64,000 bases of DNA from the human T2T-CHM13v2.0 reference genome, Homo sapiens, in the NCBI RefSeq assembly GCF_009914755.1, contig NC_060925.1. One strand, given 5' to 3'. Below the pieces are notes generated by a model, which was not told where the DNA came from, did no database searches, and saw only the letters and a list, made by a program, of their open reading frames with translations. Shown here piece by piece: positions 51,651-60,769 of the stretch. A program made the position numbers and the translations under genes. Each line of letters begins with the position of its first letter. The stretch's first letter is position 1.

Positions 51651-53566
51651 CTTCTACCCCCTGACTGATGTGTACTGGTAGGTGCCTCACATCCAGTGGG
51701 GAGCTTTTCCACAGGCTTCTCCTTGTCCTCCCCATCCCCTCAGTCTAGTGAGATGCTCCCTCTACAGGCTCCTGCTCTATCAGAGTCATCCATTGACTTC
51801 CCTGTCTTGCTGAATCCCTTAACTCTTGTGCCAGTGTCTCATTCACTTCTATATCTCTGGTACCCAGCATGAGGCCTGACCTGTACTAGCCCCTTGGTGA
51901 ATGTTGTCTGACTGAATTGATGAATGAACGAATGGCTCACCAGCTTTCAGGGACCCCTGTGGTTCATCCAAACTCACCCACTGTCCTTGCCAAGCATCTG
52001 TCACTCTACAAGAGGCAACTTAAACAAATCCTATATACTAAGGAGGATACTTCCTATTTCTCTGGAAGTTCTGAGCTCTTCCTTTACCATCCACATCTAG
52101 CCCCTCGGATCTTACAGCTGTATCTTTGGTGCTCTACACTACCAAAGACATAGAATCTAGCCACACAGAACCTGGGCCAGAGCTCACTGCTGAATCTAAA
52201 TCTGGGAGAAACTGGGATACTGCAACCATGGTCTCACACTTTTTAAATCCAGCCCTGTAGGTTCCCTGAGCCTACAGTGATACTGATAGTCATACTTTAA
52301 ATCTATAAATAGTAAGTACTAGGTTCAGATAGCATACTAGGCACTGGTGATTCAGATAAGAATATGGCATGCTTCCACCCCTGCATGTGGTACAGTCTAC
52401 AGTAAAGGTATGTACGGAGAAGCCCCCTAACTTAGGCCAAGGGTATGAGACCAGGCCTCCTGGGAGAGGTAACTACTGAGCTGAGTCTTGATATCTTTAT
52501 AAGAGAAAAGAGAGATGAGAGATTAACAGGATGAGTCCAGATGAAGGGGGTGGGTGAGGAGGGTGAGAAGGGGACAGAATGCAGGCAGAGAAAATAGGGT
52601 ATGCAAAGACACAGAGGGGATGTAGAGGCTGGCCCACCCAGGAAATGACAAGCTCTTCAGGAAGACAAAGCATGAAATGCGGGTGGCTGAGACCTGAAGC
52701 CGTGGCTCAGGGAATGGTGATAATGTCCAAGCTGCAGAGGAGTGAGGAATTCATGGTCCCCATTCTCCTAGTGAGAGCAGTTTCCTTGGTGCTGGGGCAG
52801 GGCTGAGGGCAGTGAGGGAGGGGTTCCACCAAAGGAGGGCTTTTGAGTTGGTCTCATCATCCTAAGTCTGGTATCTGGTTTGCCTAGGTTGCATCTTGGG
52901 CACTCATGATAATCTGCAGTCTAACTCCAGCAAGTATGCCAGCTCAGGTAACTGGGTCTCACTGGGCCCCTGGTTCTCCCTCCCATTCCTTGGTGGGGCT
53001 GCCCTGAAATTCTGCTTGCTCTGCGGGGGCTGGATCTTGACTTCATTGCTGGCTGCAGGGACACCCTGGGATGTGCAGATATCCCTGTTCAAGTCTGAGA
53101 TCTCCACATGCCTTTCCTCAAAGTGTTTTCAGAGTTCCACCTCCCACTGCCACACCCACGCCCCCACCAACCAATAGCAGGCCCTAGCTAAGGGTGGACC
53201 CACCTGGCCCTCACTCCCGTACCTCTTCCCACCAGCCCCCTCTGAGACTCCACTGTGCTTTGCTGAGGCTAGTGTAAGGTTCACAACACTCAGCTTCAGC
53301 AACGGGAGATTTTCTACCAGAGCCTAAATCTAAGAAGCTGGGAGGACAGTGGATTTTCACTGCAGGGGCCCGTCCCTCTCAAGTGCTGCCCACAGGCAAA
53401 ACTTGCTTCTGAGATCATGGTCCTCAGTTCTTTTAGTCTGAAGGAAACTTGGACACACTAGGTATTTTTTAAAAACAAAAACAAAAACAAACAAACAAAT
53501 GATTCCCACCTCCCTGCTTATAGGCAGTTTATCTCTATCCCATTGCAAATTGGAAAGACATGCAAA

Positions 53567-54575
53567 GGGGGGGTGGAGCCAAGATGGCCAAATAGGAACA
53601 GCCCCAGTCTACAGCTCCCAGCATGAGTGATGCAGAAGACGGGTGATTTCTGCATTTCCAACTGAGGTACCGGGTTCATCTCACTGGGGAGTGCCGGACA
53701 GTGGGTGCAGTGCACCGTGTGTGAGCCGAAGCAGGGCGAGGCATCGCCTCACCTGGGAAGCACAAGGGGTCAGGAAATTCCCTTTCCTAGTCAAAGAAAG
53801 GGGTGACAGACGGCACCTGGAAAATCGGGTCACTCCCACCCTAATACTGCGCTTTTCCAATGGGCTTAACAAACGGCACACCAGGAGATTATATTCCGCA
53901 CCTGGCTCGGAGGGTCCTACGCCCACGGAGCCTTGCTAGCACAGCAGTCTGAGATCAAACTGCAAGGCGGCAGCAAGGCTGGGGGAGGGGCGCCTGCCAT
54001 TGCCCAGGCTTGAGTAGGTAAACAAAGCAGCTGGGAAGCTCGAACTGGATGGAGCCCACCACAGCTCAAGGAGCCCTGCCTGCCTCTATAGGCTCCACCC
54101 CTGGGGGCAGGGCACAGACAATCAAAAGGCGGCAGTAACCTCTGCAGACTTAAATGTCCCTGTCTGACAGCTATGAAGAGAGTAGTGGTTCTCCCAGCAC
54201 GCAGCTTGAGATCTGAGAATGGGCAGACTGCCGCCTCAAGTGGGTCCCTGACCCCCGAGTAGCCTAACTGGGAGGCAACCCCCAGTAGGGGCGGACTGAC
54301 ACCTCACACGGCTGGGTACTCCTCTGAGATAAAACTTCCAGAGGAACGATCAGGCAGCAGCATTTGCAGTTCACCAATATCTGCTGTTCTGCAGCCACCG
54401 CTGCTGATACCCAGGCAAACAGGGTCTGGAGTGGACCTCCAGCAAACTCCAACAGACCTGCAGCTGAGGGTCCTGACTGTTAGAAGGAAAACTAACAAAC
54501 AGAAAGGACATCCACACCAAAACCCCATCTGTACGTCACCATCATCAAAGACCAAAGGTAGATAAAACCACAAAG
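53567..54575. promoter_or_regulatory. L1 5'UTR: sense promoter (YY1 site AAGATGGCC at 53581-53589) and antisense promoter region
   Basis: Intact L1 5' end with many CpGs. Bidirectional promoter activity is established for primate L1 5'UTRs; activity of this copy is not shown by the sequence. Confidence 0.7.
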
Positions 54576-55589
54576 ATGGGGAAAAAACAGAGCAGAAAAA
54601 CCAGAAGCTCTAAAAATCAGAGTGCCTCTCCTCCTCCAAAGGAACGCAGCTCCTCACCAGCAATGGAACAAAGCTGGACGGAGAATGACTTTGACGAGTT
54701 GAGAGAAGAAGGCTTCAGAAGATCAAACTACTCCAAGCTAAAGGAGGAAGGTTGAACCAATGGCAAAGAAGTTAAAAACCTTGAAAAAAATTAGACGAAT
54801 GGCTAACTAGAATAACCAATTCAGAGAAGTCCTTAAAGGACCTGATGGTGCTGAAAACCACGGCACGAGAACTACGTGACGAATGCACAAGCCTCAGTAG
54901 CTGATGCGTTCAACTGTAAGAAAGGGTATCAGCGATGGAAGACGAAATGAATGAAATGAAGCGAGAAGAGAAGTTTAGAGAAAAAAGAATAAAAAGAAAT
55001 GAACAAAGCTTCCAAGAAATATGGGACTATGTGAAAAGACCAAATCTACGTCTGATCGGTGTACCTGAAAGTGACGGGGAGAATGGAACCAAGTTGGAAA
55101 ACACTCTGCAGGATATGATCCAGGAGAACTTCCCCAATCTAGCAAGGCAGGCCAACATTCAAATTCAGGAAATACAGAGAGCACCACAAAGATACTCCTC
55201 GAGAAGAGCAACTCCAAGACACATAATTGTCAGATTCACCAAAGTTGAAATGAAGGAAAAAATGTTAAGGGCAGCCAGAGAGAAAGGTCGGGTTACCCAC
55301 AAAGGGAAGCCCATCAGACTAACAGCTGACCTCTCGGCAGAAACTCTGCAAGCCAGAAGAGAGTGGGGACCAATATTCAACATTCTTAAAGAAAAGAATT
55401 TTCAACCCAGAATTTCATATCCAGCCAAACTAGCTTCATAAGTGAAGGAGAAATGAAATCCTTTACAGAAAAGCAAATGCTGAGAGATTTTGTCACCACC
55501 AGGCCTGCCCTAAAAGAGCTCCTGAAGGAAGCACTAAACATGGAAAGGAACAACTGGTAACAGCCGCTGCAAAACATGCCAAATTGTAA
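54576..55589 (+). pseudogene. L1 ORF1p, disrupted
   Basis: Starts ATGGGGAAAAAACAG; premature stops and frameshifts; only 54935..55441 stays open (MEDEMNEMKREEKFREKRIKRNEQ...). Confidence 0.92.
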
Positions 55590-55652
55590 AGACCATCAAG
55601 GCTAGGAAGAAACTGCATCAACTAACGAGCAAAATAACCAGCTAACATCATC

Positions 55653-59474: not shown

Positions 59475-59700
59475 ACAATGAGAACACGTGGACACAGGAA
59501 GGGGAACATCACACACTGGGGACTATTGTGGGGTGGGGGGAGGGGGGAGGGATAGCATTAGGAGATATACCTAATGCTAAATGATGAGTTAATGCGTGCA
59601 GCACACCAACATGGCACATGTATACATATGTAACAAACCTGCACGTTCTGCACATATACCCTAAAACTTAAAGTATAATAATAATAAAATTAAAAAAAAA

Positions 59701-59884
59701 AGAGCGTGGCTCCTCCCCGACTTCTCTTGCTCATTCTCTTGCCATGTGACATGCTCGCTCCCCCTTCTCTATCCACCATGAGTAGAAGCTTACTGAGGCC
59801 CTCACCAAAAGGAGATGCTGGCACCATGCTTCTTGTACAGCTTGTAGAACCATGAGCCAAATAAACCTCTTTTCTTTATAAATT
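59701..59884 (+). mobile_element. MST (MSTB-like) MaLR LTR 3' fragment carried as an L1 3' transduction
   Basis: GCCATGTGAC...CTGAGGCCCTCACC...GATGCTGGCACCATGCTTCTTGTACAGC...GAGCCAAATAAACCTCTTTTCTTTATAAATT matches the MST LTR. It lies between the L1 A-tail and a second A-tail, inside the L1 TSD. Confidence 0.88.
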
Positions 59885-60769
59885 AAAAAAAAAAAAAAGA
59901 AAGAAAGACATGCAAAAATGAGAAAATAAAAAAAATTCATGGCACCTTGACCTGTTGATTTCACTTGCCTTCTGACTGGGCCCCAGAATATGAAAGGGCT
60001 TTGGATGTTCCCAACCAACAGTCACCACTGCAGGAACACAATAAACCCATCGCTGATGTGAGTCATGATGGTGGATCTTTACATTAGGGGAAAATGGCAT
60101 GTGAATGAACAGCTGCTGCAGGGGGAAGGGGGTCAGAAATCACTCCTGTCCCCACATGAGAATGCAGCTGCAATTATCCTTGGTGACATCGGAAAGGGCA
60201 ATAAGAAAATAATACTTGTTTTATCAAATGCCCCCCTCTAAGCTGACCGAGCTGCAAACCAACAATTAAACCATGATCATAATAGCAGACAATAATAATT
60301 AAGTATCACGCTATCCAAAGAGCAAAAACTGAGAAGACAGACCAAAGCCCAAATCCAGCATTGGTGTCTATAGCAAAATAAAAGGCTCTTCTCTTCAGGG
60401 ACCAGCTGGCATGCAAAAGAAATAAAAGATTCTTTGGTTATTTTCTAAAGTGGAAAAATAAAACTGGGCTTCAGGTCACTGAAAACGTTGCAGAATGTTC
60501 CAGGGTAGTGACTGCTGTCTTGGACTTAAGCTGTGACCTTGTGCTTCCCTCTAACGTGCTGGGTGACCTCCGGCCAGCTGCCCTCTCTTCCTCATCACCC
60601 TGTCACTGGAGGCTCTGAGACTGCCTATCACTAGACAGAGTCCAGAGTCTGCCCTGTAGGTGTCAGGGATTCTGTGAGGGGCCAATGTATCTTTGTCCTT
60701 GGAAGAAATGTTTCCATAAAGTCAAAACACTGGCTGTGGAACCAAAGACCTGGGTTCAAATTGCAGTTG

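What the first reader, a model, noticed from the sequence alone, without database searches (positions are those of the whole stretch)
53553..59916. Full-length L1PA3/4 carrying a 3' transduction that tags its parent locus
Seen: the 14-bp TSD GAAAGACATGCAAA precedes the L1 (53553-53566), but its second copy does not follow the L1 A-tail at about 59700. It appears at 59903-59916, after about 185 bp of MST LTR sequence, an AATAAA (59860-59865) and a second A-tail starting at 59885. Known: L1 transcripts can read through their weak poly(A) signal and mobilise 3' flanking DNA, and MaLR LTRs supply poly(A) signals. Inference: the source L1 sat inside an MSTB-like LTR elsewhere, was polyadenylated at that LTR's signal, and inserted here. 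The fragment begins AAAAAGAGCGTGGC, which I recall as lying at a TT|AAAA endonuclease site in the MST consensus, so it may be the parent element's own TSD.
Basis: partly seen in the sequence, partly recalled or inferred. Interest (0 to 1): 0.8.

Follow-up and report, generated by a model that had tools for sequence, protein, structure and literature searches.

The report
Old L1 carrying a borrowed LTR tail
A dead, full-length L1 retrotransposon in a CSMD2 intron carries about 185 bases copied from one LTR on chromosome 2, which is an ordinary example of L1 3' transduction whose parent L1 is no longer present at the source site.

Summary
The 14-mer GAAAGACATGCAAA occurs exactly twice in the window. 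One copy abuts the L1 5' end. The other follows a second poly(A) tail, after 183-187 nt of non-L1 sequence.

That extra piece is 95.2% identical (180/189, no gaps) to one LTR on contig C2 at 72,373,029-72,373,217. The next-best scored hit is 87%. The piece shares 12 rare bases with that copy, against 0-3 for any of 18 other copies. A 36-mer search of the whole genome finds only these two places.

Homology starts at the only TT|AAAA site in the 500 nt upstream of the cleavage site. It ends 19-21 nt after the LTR's AATAAA, where the window continues with poly(A). The rest of that LTR is absent from the window.

No L1 sits at the C2 site in this assembly, so the parent was lost or never fixed.

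The L1 is 6.13 kb with broken ORFs. It keeps the 128-129-nt 5'UTR segment that younger L1s lack, which fits L1PA4 or early L1PA3.

Verdict: a well-supported 3' transduction of a known kind, of low novelty.

The parts
53553..53566 (+). 5' target-site duplication GAAAGACATGCAAA
   Evidence: exact copy that abuts the L1 5' end
53567..59691 (+). Full-length L1 body (5'UTR, broken ORF1, broken ORF2, 3'UTR). It is 6,135 nt when the A-run to 59701 is included.
   Evidence: colinear over roughly positions 2-6135 with 7 of the 8 other full-length L1s fetched (the eighth aligned over about 1 kb only). Pfam ORF1 and ORF2 domains.
54323..54450 (+). 128-nt 5'UTR segment present here and absent from 4 of 4 younger L1 comparators. 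By position and size it corresponds to the 129-bp ZNF93-site segment deleted in later L1PA3.
   Evidence: gap of 128 nt at L1 position 757 in all 4 comparators. PMC7110667 (passages) for the 129-bp deletion.
54935..55441 (+). ORF1 remnant, 168 aa open
   Evidence: Transposase_22 6.1e-63, Tnp_22_dsRBD 4.9e-21, Tnp_22_trimer 2.5e-19.
55945..56745 (+). ORF2 remnant, endonuclease part, 266 aa open
   Evidence: Exo_endo_phos_2 2.3e-09.
57255..57587 (+). ORF2 remnant, reverse-transcriptase part, 110 aa open
   Evidence: RVT_1 6.2e-15.
58371..59474 (+). ORF2 C-terminal remnant, 367 aa open, no Pfam hit
59683..59688 (+). The L1's own AATAAA poly(A) signal, which was bypassed
59692..59701 (+). Internal A-run of 10 A's. 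This is the parent's short A-tail. The last 4 A's can equally be the AAAA of the source site.
   Evidence: homology to C2 starts at 59698
59698..59884 (+). Transduced 3' part of an MaLR-type LTR (the name is recalled, not tested), copied from contig C2 at 72,373,029 onward
   Evidence: 180/189 identical; 12 shared rare bases; unique pair in the genome; the only part of that LTR present in the window.
59860..59865 (+). The LTR's AATAAA, the poly(A) signal actually used. Cleavage lies 19-21 nt downstream.
   Evidence: the C2 copy continues AACCAGCC where the window has poly(A).
59885..59902 (+). Terminal poly(A) tail, A14 then GAAA
59903..59916 (+). 3' target-site duplication GAAAGACATGCAAA

Best explanation
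This is one retrotransposition event that carried a 3' transduction.

Inferred sequence of events:
1. An active L1 of the long-5'UTR type (L1PA4 or early L1PA3) once sat, in sense orientation, inside an MaLR-type LTR on contig C2. By its size C2 is chromosome 2. The L1 had been inserted at the endonuclease-type site GTTGTTT|AAAAGA at C2:72,373,029.
2. A transcript from that L1 ran past its own weak AATAAA. It was cleaved and polyadenylated about 20 nt after the LTR's AATAAA.
3. The L1 machinery inserted that RNA full-length into a CSMD2 intron, antisense to the gene, and created the 14-bp duplication.

Shown here: the composite anatomy, the single pair of duplications, the unique source locus, the position of the source junction, and the absence of an L1 at the source in this assembly.

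Inferred: the read-through itself, and the loss of the parent. The parent either never reached fixation or was later removed precisely.
For: - One exact 14-bp duplication brackets the L1, the extra sequence and the second poly(A) tail. None brackets the L1 alone.
- The extra 187-189 nt match a single locus at 95.2% with no gaps. The next-best of the 40 hits scored (from 4,097 candidates) is 87%.
- 12 bases that are rare in the family are shared by the tag and the C2 copy. Any of the 18 other copies shares 0-3.
- A 36-mer with up to 3 mismatches finds only these 2 places in 3.1 Gb.
- Homology begins at TTT|AAAA. This is the only TTAAAA in the 500 nt upstream of the cleavage site, so a random breakpoint would fall there 1 time in 500.
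- Homology ends 19-21 nt after AATAAA, within the 10-40 nt window used as the transduction signature in PMC9311842 (passages). The C2 copy continues as LTR where the window has poly(A).
- The rest of that LTR is absent from the whole window.
- The 9 differences split about 5 on the C2 lineage, 3 on the tag lineage and 1 ambiguous, as expected if the two copies decayed independently since the event.
- The 4.8% pairwise divergence is of the same order as the L1 body's divergence from its nearest relatives: 3.6-4.5% at non-CpG sites and 4.6-5.5% overall (seven full-length alignments, an eighth aligned over about 1 kb only).
Against: - No L1 lies at or within 10 kb upstream of the C2 junction in this assembly. 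The parent is therefore inferred, not seen.
- No sibling insertion or orphan copy of the tag exists in this genome.
- The internal A-run is short: 6-10 A's.
- The junction lies in an A-run, which a template switch onto an L1 poly(A) tail could also favour. Of the four A4+ runs in the 500 nt upstream of the cleavage site, one is preceded by TT.
- 5 of the 9 tag/source differences are transversions, 4 of them G<->C. That is odd for neutral decay, though the numbers are small.
- No outgroup genome could be examined.
Confidence: 0.85

Rival explanations
1. Chimeric retrocopy without a parent L1 at C2. Under this reading the L1 reverse transcriptase began on a polyadenylated transcript that ended at the C2 LTR's poly(A) site and copied about 185 nt. 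At the AAAA stretch it then switched to the poly(A) tail of an ordinary L1 RNA and copied that to its 5' end. Alternatively the two RNAs were ligated first.
For: - The C2 site carries no L1.
- There are no siblings.
- The junction lies in an A-run that offers microhomology to a poly(A) tail. One of the four A4+ runs in the 500 nt upstream is this one.
- The internal A-run is short.
- L1 chimeras with other RNAs are documented (PMC11838501, abstract).
Against: - The chimeras named in that abstract (U6/L1 and others) and treated in that paper's section headings place the partner 5' of the L1. Here the partner is 3'.
- Read-through transduction is much more common. One abstract says about 25% of insertions carry one (PMC13009371, abstract).
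- The breakpoint sits exactly on a TT|AAAA endonuclease-type site, which this model does not require.
- Source L1s that are polymorphic or missing from a reference are common (PMC4381410, abstract; PMC9311842, passages), so the empty site is weak evidence.
Confidence: 0.08
2. A true 3' transduction, but from a duplicate of the C2 LTR (for example a segmental duplication) that has since been lost or is absent from this assembly. On this reading the C2 copy is a close paralogue rather than the source site itself.
For: - The C2 copy has no L1.
- 9 differences, including clustered double changes at tag positions 7-8 and 35-36, are somewhat many for the age.
Against: - Neither half of the LTR has a second close copy in this genome. 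For the 5' half the best other hit is 86%. For the 3' half only the window and C2 match.
- The 4.8% divergence fits the L1's own age estimate.
- This reading needs an extra, unobserved duplication and an extra loss.
Confidence: 0.05
3. The LTR fragment was already at this CSMD2 site, the L1 simply landed next to it, and the 14-mer repeat is chance.
For: None found.
Against: - The LTR's first 171 nt and its end beyond the cleavage site are nowhere in the 64-kb window.
- The fragment ends in a poly(A) tail at the expected cleavage distance.
- It is 95% identical to one distant copy, whereas independent family members are at most 87% identical.
- 0 of 100 shuffles gave two copies of the 14-mer.
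- No duplication flanks the L1 alone.
Confidence: 0.01

Closest known systems
L1 3' transduction (read-through of the L1 poly(A) signal with co-mobilisation of 3' flank)
   Same: - One pair of target-site duplications encloses the L1, its internal A-run, unique flank, a downstream AATAAA and a second poly(A) tail.
- The flank maps to one other locus.
- The poly(A) signal lies 10-40 nt before cleavage, as described in PMC9311842 (passages).
   Different: - The source locus carries no L1 in this assembly.
- The event is old: the L1 has broken ORFs and differs by about 5% from the source and from its relatives. The catalogues I saw concern young L1HS and SVA events.
- The signal used belongs to an LTR rather than to unique DNA.
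L1 chimeric insertions with other RNAs (U6/L1 and similar; PMC11838501, abstract and section list seen)
   Same: Two RNA-derived parts lie inside one pair of duplications, and the fusion point is compatible with a switch at a short homology.
   Different: - In the described class the partner lies 5' of the L1 and the L1 is often truncated.
- Here the L1 is full-length and 5', the partner is 3', and the partner starts at an endonuclease-type site of its source locus.
L1PA4 / early (long) L1PA3 subfamily
   Same: - Length of 6.13 kb.
- Retains the 128-129-nt 5'UTR segment that was deleted within L1PA3 and its descendants (PMC7110667, passages).
- Nearest genomic relatives are 94.5-95.4% identical.
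   Different: The subfamily name was not tested against Dfam or Repbase consensus sequences, because none were available. Older long-5'UTR subfamilies are excluded only loosely, by the divergence figures.

Membership tests
L1 3' transduction | A single pair of target-site duplications encloses the L1 plus the extra 3' sequence, and none encloses the L1 alone | tested here: met
   exact 14-mer at 53553 and 59903 only. The sequence after the first A-run (GAGCGTGG...) does not repeat the 5' flank.
L1 3' transduction | The L1's own 3' end and A-run are retained internally and are followed directly by non-L1 sequence | tested here: met
   ...AATAATAAAATT then A10 then LTR sequence. The AATAAAATT-type end is also seen in relatives L031 and L034.
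L1 3' transduction | The extra sequence ends in a poly(A) tail 10-40 nt after a canonical poly(A) signal that belongs to the source DNA | tested here: met
   AATAAA at 59860-59865 and the tail from 59885. The C2 copy has the same AATAAA and continues as non-A sequence.
L1 3' transduction | The extra sequence maps to a specific locus elsewhere in the genome | tested here: met
   C2:72,373,029-72,373,217, 180/189 identical, 12 shared rare bases, and the only other 36-mer match in the genome.
L1 3' transduction | The source junction lies at an L1 endonuclease-type site (TT|AAAA), as expected if the tag starts with the parent's 3' duplication | tested here: met
   GTTGTTT|AAAAGACTG, the only TTAAAA in the 500 nt upstream of cleavage.
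L1 3' transduction | A progenitor L1 sits directly upstream of the source sequence. This is corroborating rather than defining, because non-reference and polymorphic sources are documented (PMC9311842 passages; PMC4381410 abstract). | tested here: not met
   the LTR is uninterrupted at the junction. There are 0 L1 matches in the 10 kb upstream. The only L1 fragment lies 8.3 kb downstream.
L1 3' transduction | The orthologous empty site in an outgroup has one copy of the duplication and no tag | not testable with these tools
   Only this one human assembly can be searched (note: it has no relatives here).
Full-length primate L1 | ORF1 (trimerisation, RBD-like and dsRBD-like domains) and ORF2 (endonuclease, reverse transcriptase) in order on one strand, about 6 kb, colinear with other full-length copies | tested here: met
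   The ORFs are interrupted: the longest open pieces are 168, 266, 110, 84 and 367 aa.
   No Dfam/Repbase library or RepeatMasker was on hand.
   128-nt gap at L1 position 757 in 4 of 4 comparators that have an open ORF1. PMC7110667 (passages).
   The name is recalled only. What was shown: the piece belongs to a high-copy family (4,097 first-look candidates, 40 scored). The C2 copy extends both ways in register with other copies and has TATAAA and AATAAA motifs.
L1 chimeric retrocopy (template switch or ligation) | Partner RNA fused 5' of the L1 part, as in the described U6/L1 class | tested here: not met
   the partner lies 3' of a full-length L1. PMC11838501 (abstract and section list).

The most novel reading that the evidence does not exclude
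The composite may be a 3'-side L1 chimera rather than a read-through product. In that case a polyadenylated transcript ending at the C2 LTR was the first template. The L1 reverse transcriptase then jumped at an AAAA stretch onto the poly(A) tail of a full-length L1 RNA. That would explain why the source site has never held an L1. It would document template switching onto L1 RNA itself, in an orientation opposite to the catalogued U6/L1-type chimeras.
Probability: 0.08. Interest if true: 0.45.

Novelty: new member of a known kind. Interest (0 to 1): 0.2.

Why it matters
The mechanism is textbook, so the value is local. The tag pins an otherwise untraceable old L1 copy to one parental site. It also records an active L1 that once sat on chromosome 2 and left no copy there in this genome. 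A catalogue of such ghost progenitors could help reconstruct which loci drove L1PA3/4 amplification in the ape ancestor.

The case also shows that an LTR's poly(A) signal can terminate L1 read-through. In addition, the hub's masking table stops at 59708, so the transduced LTR piece is left unmasked and a boundary based on masking alone would be misplaced.

There is no indication of any effect on CSMD2. The element is intronic and antisense to the gene.

Tried and rejected
- **Siblings or orphan transductions.** None were found. The DNA search scored 40 of 4,097 candidates and returned only the window and C2 above 87%. An exhaustive 36-mer pattern with up to 3 mismatches gave 2 hits in total.
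- **A second close copy of the source LTR's 5' half, which could be joined to an L1.** None was found. The best other hit was 86%, among 40 scored of 3,751 candidates.
- **An L1 near the C2 site.** There were 0 matches in the 10 kb upstream. One fragment lies 8.3 kb downstream (94% identical to L1 positions 3264-4961), which cannot be the source of an upstream tag.
- **Pre-existing LTR in the window.** Rejected.
- **Two sequential insertions (LTR retrocopy first, then L1).** Rejected, because only one duplication pair exists and it encloses both parts.
- **Naming the L1 subfamily and the LTR family.** No repeat library was available, so only the 129-bp-segment test and pairwise divergences were possible.
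- **Classic transduction and ZNF93 papers.** I looked them up by recalled DOI or PMC id, and they are not held. Statements about Goodier 2000, Pickeral 2000, Szak 2003, Khan 2006 and Jacobs 2014 are therefore recall only.
- **This locus in print.** A search for CSMD2 + LINE-1 + transduction found 2 papers, 1 listed. In that paper CSMD2 appears only in the reference list. The other searches were about mechanisms, not this locus, so 'not in print' rests alone. Genome-wide supplement tables were not searched.
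Full report
**Observation.** Reading the two ends confirms each coordinate in the finding.
- GAAAGACATGCAAA lies at 53553-53566 and is followed directly by the L1 5' end (GGGGGGTGGAGCCAAGATGG...).
- The L1 ends ...AATAATAAAATT plus ten A's (59692-59701), with its own AATAAA at 59683-59688.
- About 185 nt of non-L1 sequence follow, up to ATAAATT (59884), including an AATAAA at 59860-59865.
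- A second tail (A14 then GAAA) lies at 59885-59902, and the second GAAAGACATGCAAA at 59903-59916.
- With one mismatch allowed, the 14-mer occurs only at these two places in the 64 kb. The expected number is 0.04, and 0 of 100 shuffles gave two.
- In a repeat scan of 53300-60200 this pair is the only exact direct repeat of 14 nt.
- Nothing after the first A-run repeats the 5' flank, so the duplication encloses the L1 and the extra piece together.

**The L1.**
- From 53567 to 59701 it is 6,135 nt and colinear over nearly its whole length with other full-length L1s.
- Its reading frames are broken. The longest ATG-started open pieces are 168, 266, 110, 84 and 367 aa.
- These pieces carry the ORF1 trimerisation, RBD-like and dsRBD-like domains and the ORF2 endonuclease and reverse-transcriptase domains, in the expected order.
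- I took the eight best-scoring of 39 genomic 5'UTR matches and fetched them in full. Seven aligned end to end at 94.5-95.4% identity, or 95.5-96.4% when CpG sites are excluded. The eighth (L027) aligned over about 1 kb only.
- I compared the L1 with four L1s chosen from the top of a Pfam ORF1 search because their ORF1 frame is open. It is 94.3-94.4% identical to them. It contains a 128-nt 5'UTR segment, at L1 position 757 (window about 54323-54450), that all four lack.
- By size and position this is the 129-bp segment that, according to PMC7110667 (passages read), was deleted within L1PA3 in the great-ape ancestor and is absent from later lineages. The element therefore belongs to the pre-deletion lineage.
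The name itself could not be tested, because no repeat library was available.

**Where the extra piece comes from.**
- Searching the whole assembly with 59690-59902 gave one outstanding hit, contig C2:72,373,029-72,373,217 (C2 is 242.7 Mb, by size chromosome 2). It scored 95%, and the next best of the 40 hits scored (from 4,097 first-look candidates) scored 87% and 84%.
- A local alignment gives 180/189 identical without gaps, window 59698-59886 against the C2 copy.
- In an alignment with 18 other family copies, the tag and the C2 copy share 12 bases that occur in at most 2 of the others. No other copy shares more than 3 such bases with the tag. One of the 12 is the last base, which could equally belong to the poly(A) tail.
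- A 36-mer chosen where the family varies most, allowing 3 mismatches, matches only the window and the C2 copy in the 3.1-Gb genome.
- The tag therefore descends from this particular LTR copy, or from an unseen duplicate of it.

**Anatomy of the source site.**
- The C2 locus holds a complete LTR that extends in family register on both sides of the shared part.
- On the left, homology stops at GTTGTTT|AAAAGACTG. On the right it stops at ATAAATTAA, after which C2 continues CCAGCCTCAGATAC while the window continues with poly(A).
- The left boundary is a textbook L1 endonuclease-type site (the TT|AAAA consensus is recalled). It is the only TTAAAA in the 500 nt upstream of the cleavage point, and one of two in 2 kb.
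- The same motif occurs at that position in 4 of the 9 other copies whose alignment spanned it. Nine further copies gave no spanning alignment.
- The right boundary lies 19-21 nt after the LTR's AATAAA, inside the 10-40 nt window used as the transduction signature in PMC9311842 (passages).
- A search of the whole window with the 376-nt C2 LTR returns a single match, LTR positions 172-360. The LTR's first 171 nt and its end are not in the window. This excludes a pre-existing LTR that the L1 merely split or adjoined.

**What is missing.**
- The C2 LTR is uninterrupted at the junction.
- There is no L1 similarity in the 10 kb upstream. The only L1 fragment nearby lies 8.3 kb downstream.
- The 5' half of the LTR has no other copy above 86%.
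- No sibling or orphan copy of the tag exists in this genome.
- The parent is therefore inferred, not observed.
- This absence is not unusual. Abstracts and passages I read state that most new insertions come from young polymorphic sources (PMC4381410, abstract) and that some transduction sources are non-reference insertions (PMC9311842, passages).
- An insertion that was still polymorphic more than ten million years ago would most likely have been lost. Precise removal by recombination between its duplications is another possibility (recalled, not checked).

**Timing.**
- The nine tag/source differences were polarised against the 18 other copies. About five fall on the C2 lineage, three on the tag lineage and one is ambiguous. 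This fits independent decay since a single copying event.
- Pairwise divergence is 4.8% for the tag. For the L1 against its nearest relatives it is 3.6-4.5% at non-CpG sites and 4.6-5.5% overall.
- With recalled neutral rates of roughly 0.1-0.2% per million years per lineage, this suggests an age of roughly 10-25 million years. That spans the recalled ages of L1PA3 and L1PA4 (Khan et al. 2006, not seen).
- This is an inference with wide error. An outgroup comparison would be far better.

**Mechanism and rivals.**
- The best-supported account (0.85) is classical 3' transduction. A sense-oriented L1 was inserted at the TT|AAAA site of the C2 LTR. Its weak signal was read through, the transcript was polyadenylated at the LTR's signal, and it was inserted full-length into the CSMD2 intron with a 14-bp duplication.
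- The main rival (0.08) is a chimeric retrocopy. Reverse transcription would have started on an LTR-terminated transcript and jumped at the AAAA stretch onto an L1 RNA's poly(A) tail.
  - For it: the empty source site, the lack of siblings, the short internal A-run, and the fact that the junction is one of only four A4+ runs in the 500 nt upstream.
  - Against it: the chimeras named in the abstract I read carry the partner RNA 5' of the L1 (PMC11838501, abstract and section list). Read-through transduction is frequent, about a quarter of insertions according to one abstract (PMC13009371). An exact TT|AAAA breakpoint is required by the transduction model but not by this one.
- A lost duplicate of the C2 LTR as the true source (0.05) cannot be excluded, but it needs extra unobserved events.
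- The chance-repeat scenario is contradicted (0.01).

**Context.** According to the hub's annotation the element lies in a CSMD2 intron. The nearest listed exon is 44462-44664. The gene is on the minus strand, so the L1 and both AATAAA signals are antisense to it. I saw nothing suggesting a functional consequence.

**Verdict.** The phenomenon is long known and common, so this is a new, well-resolved member of a known kind rather than a discovery. Interest is low (0.2). The residual open point is whether a parent L1 ever sat at the C2 site, and primate assemblies can settle that.

Noticed in passing
L002 1690-2010 (contig C2 about 72,373,218-72,373,540): An antisense Alu (poly-T first) is inserted about 16 nt downstream of the LTR's cleavage point in the source copy. 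It is flanked by a direct repeat CTCAGATAC. If it predates the transduction, its T-run lay just after the poly(A) site that was used.
   Followed up: no
L036 8306-10000 (contig C2 about 72,381,305 onward): An L1 fragment on the + strand, 94% identical to positions 3264-4961 of the window's L1, lies 8.3 kb downstream of the source LTR and is cut by the end of the fetched stretch. Because it is downstream it cannot be the tag's parent, but it is of similar age.
   Followed up: partly
window about 53712 (L1 position about 146): Relative to four younger L1s, this L1 lacks 13 nt in the 5'UTR. The same gap is present in 5 of its 8 nearest full-length relatives and absent from 3. It therefore marks a sub-lineage rather than a private deletion.
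   Followed up: partly
window 59704-59845 versus L002 1507-1648: Of the 9 differences between tag and source, 5 are transversions, 4 of them G<->C. Two pairs are adjacent (tag positions 7-8 and 35-36). This is an unusual spectrum for neutral decay. The numbers are too small to interpret, and reverse-transcription errors or a slightly different source allele are possible.
   Followed up: no
window 59709-59902: The hub's table of masked repeats stops at 59708. The transduced LTR piece is therefore unmasked in NCBI's file, although it belongs to a family with thousands of candidate copies.
   Followed up: no
window 53466-53500: An A-rich (CAAAA/CAAA)n microsatellite lies about 50 nt upstream of the insertion site.
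   Followed up: no
window 59899-59909: The terminal tail ends ...A14 GAAA and is followed directly by a duplication that starts GAAAGAC, giving a GAAA GAAA repeat at the priming site. The target nick would be TCTTTC|CAA on the bottom strand, which is a degenerate endonuclease site.
   Followed up: no
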